From positions 7,621-71,620 of the forward strand of contig JAHFJJ010000001.1 of assembly GCA_023245895.1 (NCBI GenBank): a DNA stretch of 64,000 bases, given 5' to 3'. Source of the stretch: Candidatus Doudnabacteria bacterium (lineage in GTDB: Bacteria; Patescibacteriota; Doudnabacteria; UBA920). The notes under the pieces are model-generated. The model made no database searches. It saw only the letters and a list, made by a program, of their open reading frames with translations, and was not told the DNA's origin. This document shows positions 9,428 through 63,309 of this stretch, one piece after another. The position numbers were made by a program, and so were the translations under genes. Within the stretch, counting starts at the first letter, position 1. The number at the start of each line of letters is the position of its first letter.

Positions 9428-10318
9428 TTGCTTATGTTCAAAACCTACTACAAATTAGCCAAACCCGGAATTATTTACGGCAATGCCATAAATGCGATTG
9501 CCGGGTTTTTACTTGCCTCGCAGGACGGTTACGATTTTAGACTGTTAATGATAACCCTAATCGGTATTTCCTTGATAGTCGCCTCGGCCTGCGTTTTCAA
9601 CAACATTTGGGACGCGGAGATTGACGCCAAAATGGAACGCACCAAAAACCGCGCCATGGCAGTAAAATCCATAACAAAATCCAACGCGGCTGTTTACGGC
9701 GGCTTGCTTTTCATGCTGGGAGCAACTATTCTCCACTATCACATAAACGATGCCGCGCTCTTTGCCGCGTCTTTTGGTTTTTTAGTTTATGTATTCCTTT
9801 ATACCCCGCTCAAACGCCATACAATTTACGCCACGCAAATTGGCGCGGTTGCGGGAGCCATGCCCGCCGTTGCCGGATACACTGCCATAACGAATAATTT
9901 TGACCTTGGGGCCGGAATATTGTTTTTAATTATAGCCCTCTGGCAAATGCCCCACTTTTACGCCATAGCCATTTACAGGATGGATGAATACGCCGCGGCC
10001 GGTGTCCCCGTCCTTTCGGTTAAAAAAGGCATAAATTTTACCAAAATAAGTACTTTAATTTATTTAATAGCCTTTACTGCTTCTACCAGCTTACTAACGG
10101 TATACGGCTTGACCGGCTACCTTTATTTGGCGGTAATGTTGTTATTAGGCTTAATCTGGCTCTACAAAGGCGTAAAAGGACTTTCCGCCAGAGGCGGATC
10201 CGCCTTTGGCGGAAAAGTTGCTGACGATATTCTGTGGGCAAAAAAGATGTTCCGGTTATCGCTTATTATAATTTTGGCCTTTTGTGTTATAATTCCTATA
10301 GATAAATTTTTCAAATGA
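9428..10318 (+). CDS. cyoE: Protohaem IX farnesyltransferase (haem O synthase), carrying a 28-nt palindrome in frame
   Basis: UbiA-family polyprenyltransferase with about 9 TM helices and NxxxDxxxD (NNIWDAEIDAKMERT). It is the last gene of the cyo operon. Residues SARGGSAFGG are encoded by the palindrome at 10185-10212. Confidence 0.9.
   Translation: MLMFKTYYKLAKPGIIYGNAINAIAGFLLASQDGYDFRLLMITLIGISLIVASACVFNNIWDAEIDAKMERTKNRAMAVKSITKSNAAVYGGLLFMLGATILHYHINDAALFAASFGFLVYVFLYTPLKRHTIYATQIGAVAGAMPAVAGYTAITNNFDLGAGILFLIIALWQMPHFYAIAIYRMDEYAAAGVPVLSVKKGINFTKISTLIYLIAFTASTSLLTVYGLTGYLYLAVMLLLGLIWLYKGVKGLSARGGSAFGGKVADDILWAKKMFRLSLIIILAFCVIIPIDKFFK
10185..10212. repeat. Palindrome ccgccagaggcggatccgcctttggcgg inside the cyoE reading frame
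   Basis: The same 28-nt palindrome occurs intergenically at 10839-10866 as a perfect palindrome, and inside rpoD at 53916-53943. Confidence 0.7.
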
Positions 10319-10817: not shown

Positions 10818-10838
10818 TAGTTTATAAGATTAATTTTC

Positions 10839-10866
10839 CGCCAAAGGCGGATCCGCCTTTGGCGGA
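10839..10866. repeat. Perfect 28-nt palindrome ccgccaaaggcggatccgcctttggcgg, the intergenic copy
   Basis: Its reverse complement is identical to itself. Same family as 10185 and 53916. Confidence 0.75.
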
Positions 10867-10975
10867 AATATTTAATATACTGATTATAACATACTTTACC
10901 AAACCTGGCACATTTCCCTGATGCCTGTCAGATACATATTGGCATAAGCCATTAATTTTATATTATTATACCCCT

Positions 10976-61361: not shown

Positions 61362-61418
61362 GTTTATATTTTAATAATCATAAAATATTATACCAATTTT
61401 AGATACTTTAATAAATTA

Positions 61419-61452
61419 GCCTCAATAATTCACGGCCGTGAATTATTGAGGC
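61419..61452. promoter_or_regulatory. Perfect 34-nt palindrome gcctcaataattcacggccgtgaattattgaggc covering the stop of the PaaX-like gene
   Basis: Exact self-complementarity. It shares the core ttcacggccgtgaa with the second palindrome at 62003-62036. Confidence 0.6.
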
Positions 61453-62009
61453 TTTCTGATTTTGTTCAAATCAAATCTTTTTCTTAGCTCCTCATCATTA
61501 TCCATTTCATCGACTTTAATAATCCTTATATAATTCATTAGACCGCTTTGCTGCAGATAGCCTATAGCCTCTCTGTTTAAAGGATAAGGGTTAATAAAAA
61601 CGCTGGCTTGAAGCTTTACAAAATTATTTCTTTTTAAAAGGCCTCGTAATTGATCTCGTTTATCTCTAGCCTCTTCTGGTACATCAAAAATTACAATCCT
61701 CCATTTTCCATCCCAATGATTGCTTTTACTGATACTTGCCTTTACAAAAAGTTTTTCCAATTCACCTTTGCTAGTTAAGGCAAGAAAATTGTTACTTCCT
61801 TTTTTAGCTACCTTTACCAATCCTTTACTTTTCATTCGGCGTATAGATTCATAACAACTTTTCTTGCTTGCCCCTTTAAGTTGATTTCGACGCCAGCTAT
61901 CCGTGTGCTCTAAAGGCCATTGGAAAAAGCCCGTCGATTCACCTATAGCTGTTAATAATATACTGCTTAATGACCCGTATTTATTGCTCATAAATTTATT
62001 ATACCTCAT
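61443..62009 (-). CDS. PaaX-family-like transcriptional regulator
   Basis: WDGKWRIVIFDVPEEARDKRDQLRGLLKRNNFVKLQASVF matches the PaaX C-terminal-domain pattern. The N-terminal part is winged-helix-like. Its start and stop codons lie inside the two flanking perfect palindromes. Confidence 0.5.
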   Translation of the reverse strand: MRYNKFMSNKYGSLSSILLTAIGESTGFFQWPLEHTDSWRRNQLKGASKKSCYESIRRMKSKGLVKVAKKGSNNFLALTSKGELEKLFVKASISKSNHWDGKWRIVIFDVPEEARDKRDQLRGLLKRNNFVKLQASVFINPYPLNREAIGYLQQSGLMNYIRIIKVDEMDNDEELRKRFDLNKIRKPQ

Positions 62010-62036
62010 TATTTCACGGCCGTGAAATAATGAGGT
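62003..62036. promoter_or_regulatory. Perfect 34-nt palindrome acctcattatttcacggccgtgaaataatgaggt covering the start codon of the PaaX-like gene
   Basis: Exact self-complementarity, about 85 % identical to the palindrome at 61419. Confidence 0.6.
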
Positions 62037-62043
62037 TATTTAA

Positions 62044-63309
62044 TCAAAATAAACTTGTTTGTTTAGGTTTTTTGAATAATTTTTCTTTTTCGTCCTGCTC
62101 ATATATACGAATTTTTCCGAACACTCCGTCGTAGCCGCCTTCTATGTGAACGTTGCCTTCCCGAACACGCAGAATCGATGTCGATATCTCCGGAGTAGCT
62201 ATTTTGGTAATTCTTTCCTTATCAAAATCTAGTAGAATTTCAAATTCCGGATATTTGGCCACCATTTGCTCATACATTGCTAAAACTTTTTTGCTTTGCG
62301 TACCCACTTCCATAGTATCAGCAATAATTTCTTCCAAAGGGATAACATTTTTAAACGGCACGGCTCTTGATGGGGCAAAACCCAATTCCCTGTCGGCTAA
62401 CTCGTCAACACGGTTTAAAACCCCCACAAGCAGCTTTTTGCCGCAGACCGGACAAATACCTTTTAGTTTTTTAGTCTGCGCTGGCAGGCAGGAAAATTTG
62501 CAGTCACGGTGGCCGTCCAAATGGTATTTTCCTTCTTCGGGAAAAAACTCTAAAGTGTATAAAAATTCTTTAGGGTTTTTACTGTAAAGCACTCTGATAA
62601 TTTCGGAATAAGATAGTTTTTCAGGATTAATTTCAAAAACATTTGCTTCCCTGCCAATCTTCCTTAAAGAATGCGCGTCAGAGTTGGAAGTAAGTGAATA
62701 CTTGTCCAAACCCGAAATTTGCCAGTTCATTTTTGGGTCCGAAGAAAGGCCCGTTTCAATTGCCTTAATATACTTTGCCTGGTCGCCGAAAGCTTCCTCT
62801 ATAGAATTAAAACCGGAAAGCGAACCAAACACCCCAAAATGCGGCGTCCAGGCGTGGGCGGGGATGACTTCGGTTTCCGCAGATGCTTCTTTTACTATCT
62901 TTACTAACTCGTCGCAGTGAATGCCCATAATCGGCCGGCCGTCGGCTTTTAGGTTTGCGCCGCGCTTTTCCAGGCCGCTGATAATTCTATCCACGGCCTC
63001 AAAATTCGGGGCAAAAATCATATTATGGACCCGCCGGACTTTCTCTCCCTGCTTATATATAGAGGAGACTTCGGATGTCAGCATAAAGTAAGCCCGTGCC
63101 GATTTATCTTTCAATTGGTATAACCCAGGCCTTACTTCTTCAAGAGCCTCTTTTAATTCCATTAGCCATTTTGGATGCGTAAAATCTCCGGTGCCAATTA
63201 CCTGTATGCCTTTTTTATCCGCCCAGTGGCCAATATTTTTTGGGTTTAAATCCTGCGAGCAGGCCCTGGAATATTTACTGTGAATTTGGAGGTCGGCTAT
63301 CACGCGCAT
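62044..63309 (-). CDS. PHP-domain protein with a zinc finger, endonuclease Q (TIGR00375)-like
   Basis: N-terminal ADLQIHSKYS (a PHP metal-binding His pair) and other His/Asp ligands (HAWTPHFG; SDAH). A CPVCG zinc finger. 421 aa, the size of EndoQ. Confidence 0.55.
   Translation of the reverse strand: MRVIADLQIHSKYSRACSQDLNPKNIGHWADKKGIQVIGTGDFTHPKWLMELKEALEEVRPGLYQLKDKSARAYFMLTSEVSSIYKQGEKVRRVHNMIFAPNFEAVDRIISGLEKRGANLKADGRPIMGIHCDELVKIVKEASAETEVIPAHAWTPHFGVFGSLSGFNSIEEAFGDQAKYIKAIETGLSSDPKMNWQISGLDKYSLTSNSDAHSLRKIGREANVFEINPEKLSYSEIIRVLYSKNPKEFLYTLEFFPEEGKYHLDGHRDCKFSCLPAQTKKLKGICPVCGKKLLVGVLNRVDELADRELGFAPSRAVPFKNVIPLEEIIADTMEVGTQSKKVLAMYEQMVAKYPEFEILLDFDKERITKIATPEISTSILRVREGNVHIEGGYDGVFGKIRIYEQDEKEKLFKKPKQTSLF

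What the first reader, a model, noticed from the sequence alone, without database searches (positions are those of the whole stretch)
61419..62036. PaaX-like regulator gene bracketed exactly by two perfect 34-nt palindromes
gcctcaataattcacggccgtgaattattgaggc (61419-61452) covers the stop codon, and acctcattatttcacggccgtgaaataatgaggt (62003-62036) covers the start codon of the same 188 aa gene. Both are exact palindromes sharing the core TTCACGGCCGTGAA. Either the regulator binds both, giving autoregulation with start-codon occlusion, or the gene is a cassette delimited by palindromic recombination sites (attC or BIME-like).
Basis: seen in the sequence. Interest (0 to 1): 0.5.

Follow-up and report, generated by a model that had tools for sequence, protein, structure and literature searches.

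The report
Repressor gene bracketed by its palindromes
A small DNA-binding protein gene in an uncultured, tiny-genome (CPR) bacterium sits between two near-identical perfect palindromes; the same arrangement recurs in dozens of related genomes and most likely lets the protein switch off its own promoter, a module I could not find described in the literature.

Summary
There are two perfect palindromes, 61418-61453 (36 nt) and 62003-62036 (34 nt). They bracket a 182-aa gene (61443-61991, minus strand) that encodes a winged-helix plus Cas2-like protein, a truncated relative of PaaX.

The bracket is not a local accident. Among homologous loci, almost all from Patescibacteria, 58 of 81 carry a long palindrome at the stop codon. 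With a relaxed criterion, 64 of 79 carry one about 300 nt upstream.

- Both copies in a locus match each other out to position 17-18 from the dyad.
- Between loci only the centre is conserved (CGGCCG, or less often CGATCG).
- The upstream copy overlaps the gene's own promoter. In the window this reads -35 TTCACG, 17 nt, TATAAT, 6 nt, ATG.

E. coli PaaX represses its own promoter through a 39-bp split palindrome. My best reading is therefore an autorepressor with twin operators.

The attC, BIME and plain-terminator readings fail their defining tests. Some features stay unexplained:
- the near-perfect symmetry at every position;
- the role of the downstream copy;
- clean presence/absence of the whole module in syntenic relatives;
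- palindromes of the same type conserved inside fpg and miaA genes.

Protein binding to the palindromes is inferred, not shown.

The parts
62003..62036 (.). Upstream palindrome (U), 34 nt perfect, ACCTCATTATTTCACGGCCGTGAAATAATGAGGT. Proposed operator overlapping the gene's own promoter.
   Evidence: exact palindrome; identical 34 nt in the 74%-identical orthologue L014; an equivalent site at -286 to -357 nt from the WDGKWR codons in 41 of 79 loci (64 of 79 with a relaxed criterion).
62021..62026 (-). -35-like hexamer TTCACG, which is one half of the palindrome core.
   Evidence: TTCACG, 17 nt, TATAAT, 10 of 12 matches, the joint-best promoter-like site in 58-64 kb; the same geometry in 10 loci (TTCACG, TTGACG or TTCTCG, 17 nt, then a -10 box).
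61998..62003 (-). -10 box TATAAT. Its first T is the last base of the palindrome.
   Evidence: a -10-like box with at least 5 of 6 matches on the gene-proximal side of U in 21 of 41 loci (9 perfect), against 17-29% on the control sides and 9% at random positions.
61443..61991 (-). Gene for a 182-aa winged-helix plus Cas2-like protein, a minimal PaaX-family protein. ATG at 61991-61989, 6 nt after the -10 box (leaderless). Stop TAA at 61445-61443, inside the downstream palindrome.
   Evidence: PF20803, 7.3e-22. (P0001, 182 aa, 100% identity). (alignment of N-termini). (structure model pLDDT 80.6; top fold match PaaX 8a39, then Cas2). (PaaX TIGR02277 44 bits against a cut-off of 264; cas2 TIGR01573 25.3 against 24.5).
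61418..61453 (.). Downstream palindrome (D), 36 nt perfect, AGCCTCAATAATTCACGGCCGTGAATTATTGAGGCT. Proposed second binding site, and possibly also a 3' hairpin. It contains the stop codon.
   Evidence: an equivalent site in 58 of 81 loci, with its centre at +263 to +350 nt (mode +275) from the W codon of the WDGKWR motif. U and D of one locus are 64-94% identical position by position out to position 17 from the dyad, then drop to background.

Best explanation
[quoted passage not shown] It has no effector domain. The two palindromes are its cognate 34-36-bp binding sites.

The upstream site is co-extensive with the gene's own sigma-70-type promoter. Half of the core serves as the -35 element, TATAAT sits at the edge of the palindrome, and the ATG follows 6 nt later. 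A bound dimer would therefore exclude RNA polymerase, giving negative autoregulation.

The downstream site overlaps the stop codon. It is a second, more symmetric site for the same protein. It may act as an auxiliary operator (a loop of about 584 bp) or as a roadblock, and its transcript may also form a 3' hairpin.

By analogy with E. coli PaaX (operator TGATTC-N27-GAATCA), the variable outer arms would be read by the variable winged helices. The invariant CGGCCG dyad would lie under the conserved Cas2-like dimer.

What is shown:
- the sequence architecture;
- its conservation across loci;
- the promoter overlap;
- the homology to PaaX.

What is inferred:
- binding of the protein to the sites;
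- repression;
- which domain reads which part of the site;
- any role of the downstream site.
For: 1. Recurrence. The bracket is present in L002, L008, L014, L017 and L132 and in the metagenome loci: downstream 58 of 81, upstream 41 of 79 (64 of 79 relaxed), both 32 of 72.
2. An unbiased DNA-only search of species genomes found 13 copies of the core, all in Patescibacteria. Five of them flank this gene family or lie just downstream of it.
3. Discrete cognate sites. Palindromy and U-versus-D identity both hold to position 17-18 from the dyad and both fall to background at 19-20. Positions 11-17 are locus-specific yet shared by U and D.
4. Slow evolution. U is 100% identical over 34 nt in an orthologue whose protein is only 72.5% identical by global alignment (74% by BLASTP). 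D differs at 2 positions per arm, and both are compensated.
5. Promoter overlap. This is seen. Imperfect U sites carry TTGACA and TATACT in their outer arms.
6. The protein is a PaaX homologue by sequence and fold. PaaX represses its own Px promoter by hindering RNA polymerase, through a 39-bp split palindrome (PMC9493321).
7. Some solo sites in the same contigs carry the same arms as the local U and D sites: L076, L088 and L103 closely (6-7 of 7 outer positions), L017 partly (7 of 7 inner, 4 of 7 outer).
Against: - No binding data exist.
- Symmetry is kept at every one of 17 positions, including positions that carry no family-wide information. This is more than a dimeric operator normally needs.
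- A repressor whose only sites in 64 kb flank its own gene has no evident target.
- Two of the eight solo sites found in species genomes lie between convergent genes, and four solo sites in homologue loci lie inside ORFs. These are not promoter positions.
- No clear correlation was found between the recognition helix and the site sequence.
- U-to-D centre distances (549-681 bp) show no helical phasing.
- The protein keeps Cas2-like residues, including the invariant Asp103 and the Q-x-S-V motif. A pure repressor would not need them.
Confidence: 0.55

Rival explanations
1. The unit palindrome-gene-palindrome is, or descends from, a selfish or domesticated DNA element. This would be IS-like, or analogous to a REP/RAYT 'REPtron'. 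The Cas2-like protein would recognise and process its own terminal hairpin or cruciform-forming repeats. Solo palindromes would be products or relics of that activity.
For: - The architecture mirrors a minimal insertion sequence: a promoter in the left terminal repeat, a stop codon in the right repeat, and about 620 bp in total.
- The whole unit, with both palindromes, is cleanly present (window, L014, L008, L132) or absent (L129, L130, L131) at one syntenic site after the EndoQ gene. No solo copy is left behind.
- Unlinked solo copies within one genome are identical over 36-38 nt: L007, L010 and L011; L003 and L005.
- Near-perfect symmetry despite sequence turnover suggests a symmetrising, hairpin-templated process.
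- The Cas2-like acidic residue is invariant.
Against: - The gene is single-copy in the window.
- 90%-identity protein clusters are seen on only 1-5 contigs.
- Synteny is conserved, and PaaX-like divergence tracks EndoQ divergence. L015 and L016 both sit next to secA.
- No target-site duplication is visible.
- No known transposase fold is present.
- Copy number is far below that of REP elements.
Confidence: 0.15
2. The palindromes work mainly as RNA or DNA hairpins, as terminators, insulators or 3'-end stabilisers that isolate the gene from its neighbours. They would not be read specifically by the encoded protein.
For: - Each palindrome lies just after a co-directional stop codon.
- The predicted RNA hairpins have free energies of -21 to -25 kcal/mol, z about -7 to -8.
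- The scan flags them as terminator-like.
- U is perfect in 18 of 43 loci when the upstream neighbour is co-directional, but in 1 of 12 when it is divergent (p = 0.04).
Against: - There is no U-tract enrichment. The 3' flank is T 0.38 against A 0.32, and about half of the sites have the T-run on the wrong side.
- There is no excess of G-T wobble among the mismatches.
- The same contigs hold ordinary GC-stem plus T-tract terminators.
- A hairpin role does not explain three things: the CGGCCG dyad conserved across CPR lineages, the identity of U and D arms within a locus, or the specific association with this gene.
- Such palindromes also sit inside fpg and miaA reading frames, where termination would be harmful.
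Confidence: 0.12
3. The protein acts on RNA. Its Cas2-like domain, a fold with reported RNase activity in some Cas2 and VapD proteins, would bind or cleave the hairpin formed by the palindrome in transcripts, giving post-transcriptional control.
For: - Cas2-like motifs are retained. TIGR01573 scores just above its cut-off and there are PADLOC Cas2 hits.
- D lies within the gene's own 3' end.
- Intragenic copies in fpg and miaA would be transcribed.
Against: - In many loci the upstream copy lies upstream of the predicted transcription start, so it is absent from the gene's own mRNA.
- There is no strand asymmetry or wobble signal.
- The N-terminal domain is a winged helix of the PaaX type, a DNA-binding module.
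Confidence: 0.1
4. The gene is a recombination cassette delimited by attC-like or other site-specific recombination sites. It would excise as a circle carrying one palindrome.
For: - Two directly repeated sites flank one ORF.
- The unit is present or absent in syntenic relatives.
Against: - Empty sites carry no solo palindrome.
- No integrase or recombinase is called in the 12 loci with gene calls.
- The bracketed gene is always the same gene, and there is no array.
- The sites are perfect palindromes with a symmetric centre, unlike attC.
Confidence: 0.03

Closest known systems
PaaX, the phenylacetyl-CoA-responsive repressor of the paa operon (E. coli W; PDB 8a39; Pfam PF07848, PF20803, PF08223)
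   Same: - An N-terminal winged helix followed by a Cas2-like central domain, including the shared WDGKW motif.
- A long palindromic operator of about 36-39 bp.
- Repression of its own promoter by hindering RNA polymerase (PMC9493321).
   Different: - Only 182 aa against 316, with no C-terminal effector domain.
- It scores far below the PaaX equivalog cut-off: 44 bits against 264.
- There is no paa operon nearby.
- The site is a continuous perfect palindrome with an invariant CGGCCG dyad, not two hexamers split by an arbitrary N27.
- A second copy sits at the stop codon, so the gene is bracketed.
- The family is apparently confined to Patescibacteria.
Cas2, the CRISPR adaptation protein
   Same: - A ferredoxin-like fold.
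- Motifs hhh[FY]D[IV]P...R..L...L...F..[LQ].SVF, with the conserved Asp.
   Different: - It is fused to a winged helix.
- No cas1, other cas genes or CRISPR array appear in the 12 loci with gene calls.
- The flanking repeats number two, are fully palindromic, and enclose the gene itself.
REP/BIME elements with their RAYT gene (REPtrons), and IS200/IS605-type minimal elements
   Same: - A small single-copy gene flanked by its own roughly 35-bp hairpin-forming repeats.
- Extra copies elsewhere, mostly just after stop codons.
- The repeat sequence is genome-specific.
   Different: - The protein is not an HUH/Y1 transposase.
- The repeats are perfect palindromes without the GTAG head.
- Copy number is a few per genome region, not tens to hundreds.
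Autoregulated site-binding proteins whose gene lies beside one of their few chromosomal sites (B. subtilis RTP with its Ter sites; E. coli Tus with TerB). This comparison is from my own knowledge.
   Same: - A small winged-helix dimer.
- The gene lies next to a site that overlaps its own promoter.
- A handful of other sites lie at non-promoter positions.
   Different: - The sites here are symmetric and so cannot be polar.
- There is no GC-skew switch in the window.
- There is no evidence of a role in replication.

Membership tests
PaaX family repressor | N-terminal winged helix plus central Cas2-like domain (PF20803) | tested here: met
   PF20803 scores 7.3e-22, 77.7 bits against a cut-off of 24. 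The profile hits 8a39 residues 57-114. Foldseek's top hit is 8a39, E 4e-6, over 177 aligned columns.
PaaX family repressor | C-terminal effector (phenylacetyl-CoA) domain PaaX_C, and the full-length equivalog score | tested here: not met
   There is no PF08223 hit, and the protein ends about 10 residues after the Cas2-like domain. TIGR02277 scores 44.3 bits against a cut-off of 264.55.
PaaX family repressor | Association with paa catabolic genes | tested here: not met
   The neighbours are EndoQ-family, PpsA, histidine phosphatase, SecA, ComEC and similar genes.
PaaX family repressor | Binds a palindromic operator overlapping its own promoter | not testable with these tools
   The sequence geometry fits. 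Binding itself needs EMSA or footprinting.
CRISPR Cas2 | Cas2 profile match above the curated threshold | tested here: inconclusive
   TIGR01573 scores 25.3 against 24.5, which just passes. PF09827 scores 22.4 against 23.8, which just fails.
CRISPR Cas2 | Adjacent cas1, other cas genes and a CRISPR array | tested here: not met
   None is called within up to 10 kb in the 12 loci with gene calls. The window holds only two copies of the repeat.
Integron attC cassette | Imperfect palindrome with R''/L''-L'/R' boxes (GTTRRRY) and extrahelical bases | tested here: not met
   The sites are perfect palindromes with a CGGCCG or CGATCG dyad and have no GTTRRRY ends.
Integron attC cassette | An array of diverse promoterless cassettes next to intI | tested here: not met
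   It is always the same gene, with its own promoter, and no integrase is called in the flanks.
REP/BIME with RAYT | The flanked gene encodes an HUH/Y1 (IS200/IS605-like) transposase | tested here: not met
   The Pfam, NCBIfam and fold matches are PaaX and Cas2 only.
REP/BIME with RAYT | Tens to hundreds of intergenic copies per genome | tested here: not met
   There are 2 copies in the 64-kb window, both flanking the gene. About a dozen solo copies (12 listed, one of which proved to be a distant upstream site) were found in about 0.8 Mb of homologue-centred loci. Whole genomes could not be scanned.
Intrinsic (Rho-independent) terminator | Stable GC-containing stem-loop | tested here: met
   Free energies are -21 to -25 kcal/mol, z about -7 to -8. 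flags the sites as terminator-like.
Intrinsic (Rho-independent) terminator | A U-tract immediately 3' of the stem | tested here: not met
   The 3' flank is T 0.38 against A 0.32. The internal A/T tract is in the terminator-compatible order in only about half of the sites.
Insertion sequence | Terminal inverted repeats enclosing one ORF, with the promoter in the left repeat and the stop codon in or at the right repeat | tested here: met
Insertion sequence | A recognised transposase, multiple copies, varied insertion sites and target duplications | tested here: not met
   The only sign of mobility is presence or absence at one syntenic site.

The most novel reading that the evidence does not exclude
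The module is not just a repressor with operators. It would be a self-contained DNA-level element in which a Cas2-derived protein recognises palindromes as cruciforms or hairpins and nicks or resolves them. That activity would keep the palindromes perfectly symmetric. It could also seed the copies seen at other loci, including inside fpg and miaA, and let the whole gene-plus-palindromes unit be gained or lost cleanly. This would be a new class of hairpin-processing element, and a functional bridge between Cas2 and the PaaX regulators.
Probability: 0.15. Interest if true: 0.85.

Novelty: new variant of a known kind. Interest (0 to 1): 0.55.

Why it matters
CPR/Patescibacteria have tiny genomes, and little is known experimentally about how they regulate their genes.

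- This protein family is sizeable. It has 240 clusters (at 50% identity) at E <= 1e-30 and 4211 at E <= 1e-10, though the looser cut-off probably also captures classical PaaX and Cas2 relatives.
- Annotation pipelines name its members Cas2 or PaaX. Neither name fits the genomic context.
- The work gives the family a concrete, testable binding site that can be read straight from each genome. That could make it a convenient model repressor-operator pair for uncultured bacteria.
- It offers a natural series of protein-site pairs for studying how specificity drifts.
- The unexplained features raise the question of whether a Cas2-fold protein here does more than bind DNA. Those features are perfect symmetry at every position, a second site on the stop codon, clean gain or loss of the unit, and conserved palindromes inside repair and tRNA-modification genes.

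Tried and rejected
- **Rfam scan of the region.** Only sub-threshold noise was found.
- **Viral contigs.** There were 30 hits to the 16-mer core, but 29 have arms of only 7-10 nt and look like chance. This serves as a negative control. The one long hit (L031) sits next to a serine-recombinase-like ORF with no PaaX-like gene, so it was judged unrelated.
- **Replication origin or terminus link.** GC skew is uniformly negative across the window.
- **RNA-level signal.** G-T mismatches are no more common than A-C mismatches, and there is no T-tract.
- **Recognition helix against site sequence.** No simple rule emerged. Pairwise correlations are weak (rho 0.08-0.23). The only hint is that the inner core tracks the Cas2-like domain slightly better than it tracks the winged helix (partial 0.18 against 0.02). 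I treat this as inconclusive.
- **A promoter at the downstream copy.** There is no -10 enrichment.
- **Helical phasing of the U-D distance.** There is none (distances taken).
- **Defence-system models (PADLOC).** Only weak Cas2 hits were found.
- **Literature.** There were no hits for the core sequence, for PaaX + Cas2-like + Patescibacteria, or for PaaX + Cas2 + winged. The CPR + palindrome search returned 6 papers, none relevant.
- **A second gene copy in the window.** There is none.
- **attC and BIME readings.** Both were rejected on the membership tests.
Full report
**1. The observation**

The sequence shows two exact palindromes. The other is at 62003-62036 (34 nt).

- Their shared core, TTCACGGCCGTGAA, occurs exactly twice in 64 kb. 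Even with two mismatches allowed, shuffles give 0.09 matches.
- No other CGGCCG- or CGATCG-centred palindrome above chance length exists in the window.
- The two arms differ at three positions, and each difference is mirrored in the opposite arm.

Between the palindromes lies one minus-strand ORF. As a mechanical ORF it is 188 aa (62009-61443). The database gene call, however, is 182 aa (P0001), homologues align from MSNKYGS, and a TATAAT box sits between the two candidate ATGs. The real start is therefore most likely ATG 61991-61989, 12 nt outside the palindrome. The stop codon TAA (61445-61443) does lie inside the left palindrome.

**2. The protein**

- Pfam finds PaaX_M, the 'central Cas2-like domain' of PaaX (7.3e-22), and a sub-threshold Cas2 match.
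- A family profile hits E. coli PaaX (8a39) across the winged helix and the shared WDGKW motif.
- An AlphaFold model (pLDDT 80.6) matches 8a39 best (E 4e-6), then two PaaX-like structures (3kfw, 3l09), then many Cas2 structures.
- The protein ends just after the Cas2-like domain, so the PaaX effector domain is missing.
- It scores 44 bits against the 264-bit PaaX equivalog cut-off. It just passes the NCBIfam cas2 cut-off, 25.3 against 24.5.
- The family keeps Cas2-like motifs: an invariant Asp103 and Q128, S130 and V131.

In short, it is a minimal winged-helix plus Cas2-like protein. It is homologous to PaaX but is not a PaaX orthologue.

**3. The bracket is a conserved module**

A DNA-only scan of one genome per species for TAWTTCACGGCCGTGAAWTA returned 11 loci from 8 genomes, all Patescibacteria.
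- Every one of the 13 copies but one (L001) extends into a perfect palindrome of 34-42 nt.
- In two loci (L002, L008) two copies about 590 bp apart bracket a 182- or 186-aa homologue.
- A third locus (L003) has the copy just downstream of a homologue.

As a control, 29 of 30 hits to the 16-mer core in viral contigs have arms of only 7-10 nt.

I then started from the protein instead. This used homologue loci from exact look-ups and 80 metagenome loci at 31-66% identity. They gave the following picture.
- A palindrome centred 263-350 nt after the W codon of the WDGKWR motif (mode 275) is present in 58 of 81 loci. That is about 23 nt past the usual stop.
- A palindrome centred 286-357 nt before that codon is present in 41 of 79 loci.
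- Both are present in 32 of 72 loci.
- With a relaxed criterion (at least 12 of 18 positions paired), 64 of 79 loci have the upstream site.
- In several homologues the reading frame runs into the core and ends ...NSRP*. This reads AAT TCA CGG CCG TGA, so the palindrome supplies the stop codon.
- Of 106 perfect loop-less palindromes with arms of at least 13 nt in 865 kb of these loci, 91 are centred on CGGCCG or CGATCG. Shuffled sequence gives none.

The family is sizeable, with 240 50%-identity clusters at E <= 1e-30. I found no paper describing it.

**4. Anatomy of the site**

Reading outwards from the dyad, the consensus is G/A, G, C, A, C/G, T, T, W, W, W. After that information is low, apart from a frequent C at position 13.

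Two independent measures end at the same place. Complementarity of the two arms, and identity between the upstream and downstream copies of one locus, both stay high to position 17-18. Arm complementarity is 0.88-1.0 through position 17, and U-to-D identity is mostly 0.8-0.94 (lowest 0.64) through position 17. Both fall to background at positions 19-20.

The unit is therefore a discrete site of 34-36 bp.
- The inner 10 bp per arm are conserved across the family.
- The outer 7 bp are specific to each locus but shared by both copies.

The site evolves slowly. In L014, whose protein is 72.5% identical by global alignment (74% by BLASTP), the upstream 34 nt are identical. The downstream arms differ at two positions, both compensated.

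**5. The upstream copy is the promoter region**

In the window the minus strand reads TTCACG (half of the core), 17 nt, TATAAT (its first T is the last base of the palindrome), 6 nt, ATG.
- The same layout recurs with TTCACG, TTGACG or TTCTCG in ten loci. In other subfamilies the dyad lies in the spacer, with TTGACA and TATACT occupying the two outer arms. This makes those upstream copies imperfect.
- A -10-like box with at least 5 of 6 matches lies on the gene-proximal side of the upstream copy in 21 of 41 loci (9 perfect). The figures are 17-29% on the three control sides and 9% at random positions.
- The downstream copy shows no such enrichment.

The short distance from the -10 box to the ATG implies a leaderless transcript. 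That is an inference.

**6. Precedent**

According to the review PMC9493321, E. coli PaaX binds TGATTC-N27-GAATCA, a 39-bp split palindrome. The same review states that it represses its own Px promoter by sterically hindering RNA polymerase. A 34-36-bp palindrome read mainly at its outer arms by two widely spaced winged helices is therefore what this fold would be expected to use.

I infer, but cannot show, two further points. The variable outer arms go with the variable recognition helix. The invariant dyad goes with the highly conserved Cas2-like dimer. My attempts to demonstrate this by correlation were inconclusive.

**7. Most likely mechanism**

The protein is a dimeric autorepressor. Binding at the upstream site excludes RNA polymerase from the gene's own promoter.

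The downstream site is a second site for the same protein and is usually the more perfect one. It may be an auxiliary operator, with centres about 584 bp apart here and 549-681 bp elsewhere. It may instead be a roadblock that limits read-through into the next gene.

There is a weak hint that the same sequence also serves as a 3' hairpin. The upstream copy is perfect in 18 of 43 loci where the preceding gene is co-directional, but in 1 of 12 where it is divergent (p = 0.04, not corrected for relatedness).

**8. Why not a plain terminator, attC or BIME**

*Terminator.* The hairpins would be stable, at -21 to -25 kcal/mol. Several points argue against a terminator role, though.
- There is no U-tract enrichment.
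- Half of the sites have their internal T-run on the wrong side.
- There is no wobble signal.
- Ordinary GC-stem plus T-tract terminators exist in the same contigs.
- A terminator would not keep one dyad across CPR lineages, nor match its partner 584 bp away.

*attC.* This reading fails on every defining feature: perfect symmetry, no GTTRRRY, no integrase, no array, and always the same gene with its own promoter.

*BIME/REP.* This reading fails on protein type and on copy number.

**9. What remains odd**

(a) Symmetry is kept at all 17 positions, including those that carry no family-wide information. A dimeric operator does not obviously need that.

(b) In this window the protein's only candidate sites flank its own gene.

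(c) Among Doudnabacteria-like relatives with the same gene order (SuhB-like, EndoQ-family, ..., PpsA, DnaG, RpoD), the whole unit varies.
- It is present in the window, L014, L008 and L132.
- It is absent in L129, L130 and L131. There the EndoQ stop is followed directly by the next gene's promoter, and no solo palindrome remains.
- EndoQ identities are 77-86% for all pairs, so I cannot tell loss from gain.
- PaaX-like divergence tracks EndoQ divergence, which fits inheritance with repeated loss.

(d) Solo copies exist.
- In the pattern-driven genome loci, all eight lie just after a stop codon, and two lie between convergent genes.
- In the protein-driven loci there are about a dozen (12 listed; the L101 entry proved to be that locus's distant upstream site).
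- Four of these lie inside reading frames, at the same codon positions in two related genomes each.
- In fpg they are at codons about 178-190. The peptide FFTAVK[N/K] is encoded by TTT TTY ACG GCC GTR AAA.
- In miaA they are at codons about 63-75.
- In both genes the arms are quite different but still perfectly paired.
- Some solo copies match the local flanking sites: L076, L088 and L103 closely, L017 in the inner arm and partly in the outer arm. Others do not: L068, L015, L016 and L049. Further paralogues or an independent process may therefore be involved.

These points keep alive a more exotic reading, in which the Cas2-fold protein processes hairpin or cruciform DNA. I give that about 15%.

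**10. Verdict**

- The autoregulation idea is supported in modified form, as promoter occlusion rather than start-codon occlusion.
- The cassette, attC and BIME ideas are rejected.
- The protein is a new, minimal branch of the PaaX and Cas2-like fold.
- The gene-bracketing twin palindromes with an invariant CGGCCG dyad appear to be an undescribed variant of a known regulatory principle.
- Binding and repression are inferred and need the experiments listed under decisive next steps.

Noticed in passing
window 10182-10215 and 10835-10868: A second, unrelated pair of 34-nt palindromes lies 653 bp apart: TTTCCGCCAGAGGCGGATCCGCCTTTGGCGGAAA (one mismatch) and TTTCCGCCAAAGGCGGATCCGCCTTTGGCGGAAA (perfect). 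Each half is itself a small hairpin. The first lies inside the 3' part of a heme O synthase-like ORF (9428-10318, plus strand). The second is intergenic. Together they enclose two small membrane-protein ORFs.
   Followed up: partly
L017 15943-15980 and L068 15803-15842 (fpg); L015 11484-11511 and L016 9157-9194 (miaA): CGGCCG-centred palindromes with arms of 14-20 nt (perfect in three, one mismatch in L015) sit inside reading frames, at the same codon positions in pairs of related genomes. The arm sequences differ and the encoded loop residues differ with them. Symmetry is therefore maintained at the cost of amino-acid changes. Only the L017 copy resembles the local PaaX-like sites, and mainly in its inner arm.
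   Followed up: partly
L129 11266-11289, L130 11293-11319, L131 11344-11383, compared with window 61362-62043: Syntenic relatives lack the whole palindrome-gene-palindrome unit. The EndoQ-family stop codon is followed directly by the next gene's TGGTATAAT-type promoter. The ppsA promoter AAATTGGTATAAT is shared by L131 and the window (61399-61387, minus strand).
   Followed up: yes
window 62044-63309 (minus strand): The upstream neighbour is an EndoQ-family (PF27218, TIGR00375) PHP-type protein. It is very well conserved (over 70% identity in more than 100 clusters) and is variously mislabelled 'DNA helicase UvrD' in source annotations.
   Followed up: no
L003 (gene-oriented coordinates: centres +306 and +398 from the W codon): One genome (AMAZON01) has two different palindromes in tandem downstream of its PaaX-like gene, with cores ATCACGG and TTCACGG. 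The second is identical to a solo copy on another contig, L005.
   Followed up: no
L131 16103-16144; L077 2686-2725; L068 and L084 upstream sites: Palindromes from different samples share the outer-arm motif AGCACGATT but have different inner cores (TAGCGG, TAACGG, GAGCGG). The L068 and L084 proteins share the recognition-helix sequence PQFERGVRHL. This is an anecdotal hint that the outer arms are what the winged helix reads.
   Followed up: partly
whole window: CGATCG does not occur at all in the 64 kb, while CGGCCG occurs 21 times. I did not test whether this reflects a restriction-modification system.
   Followed up: no
L031 9272-9307 (viral contig): A single 36-nt perfect palindrome with the same TTCACGGCCGTGAA core lies between two minus-strand genes, downstream of a large serine-recombinase-like ORF, in a 55% GC viral contig. 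There is no PaaX-like gene nearby.
   Followed up: partly
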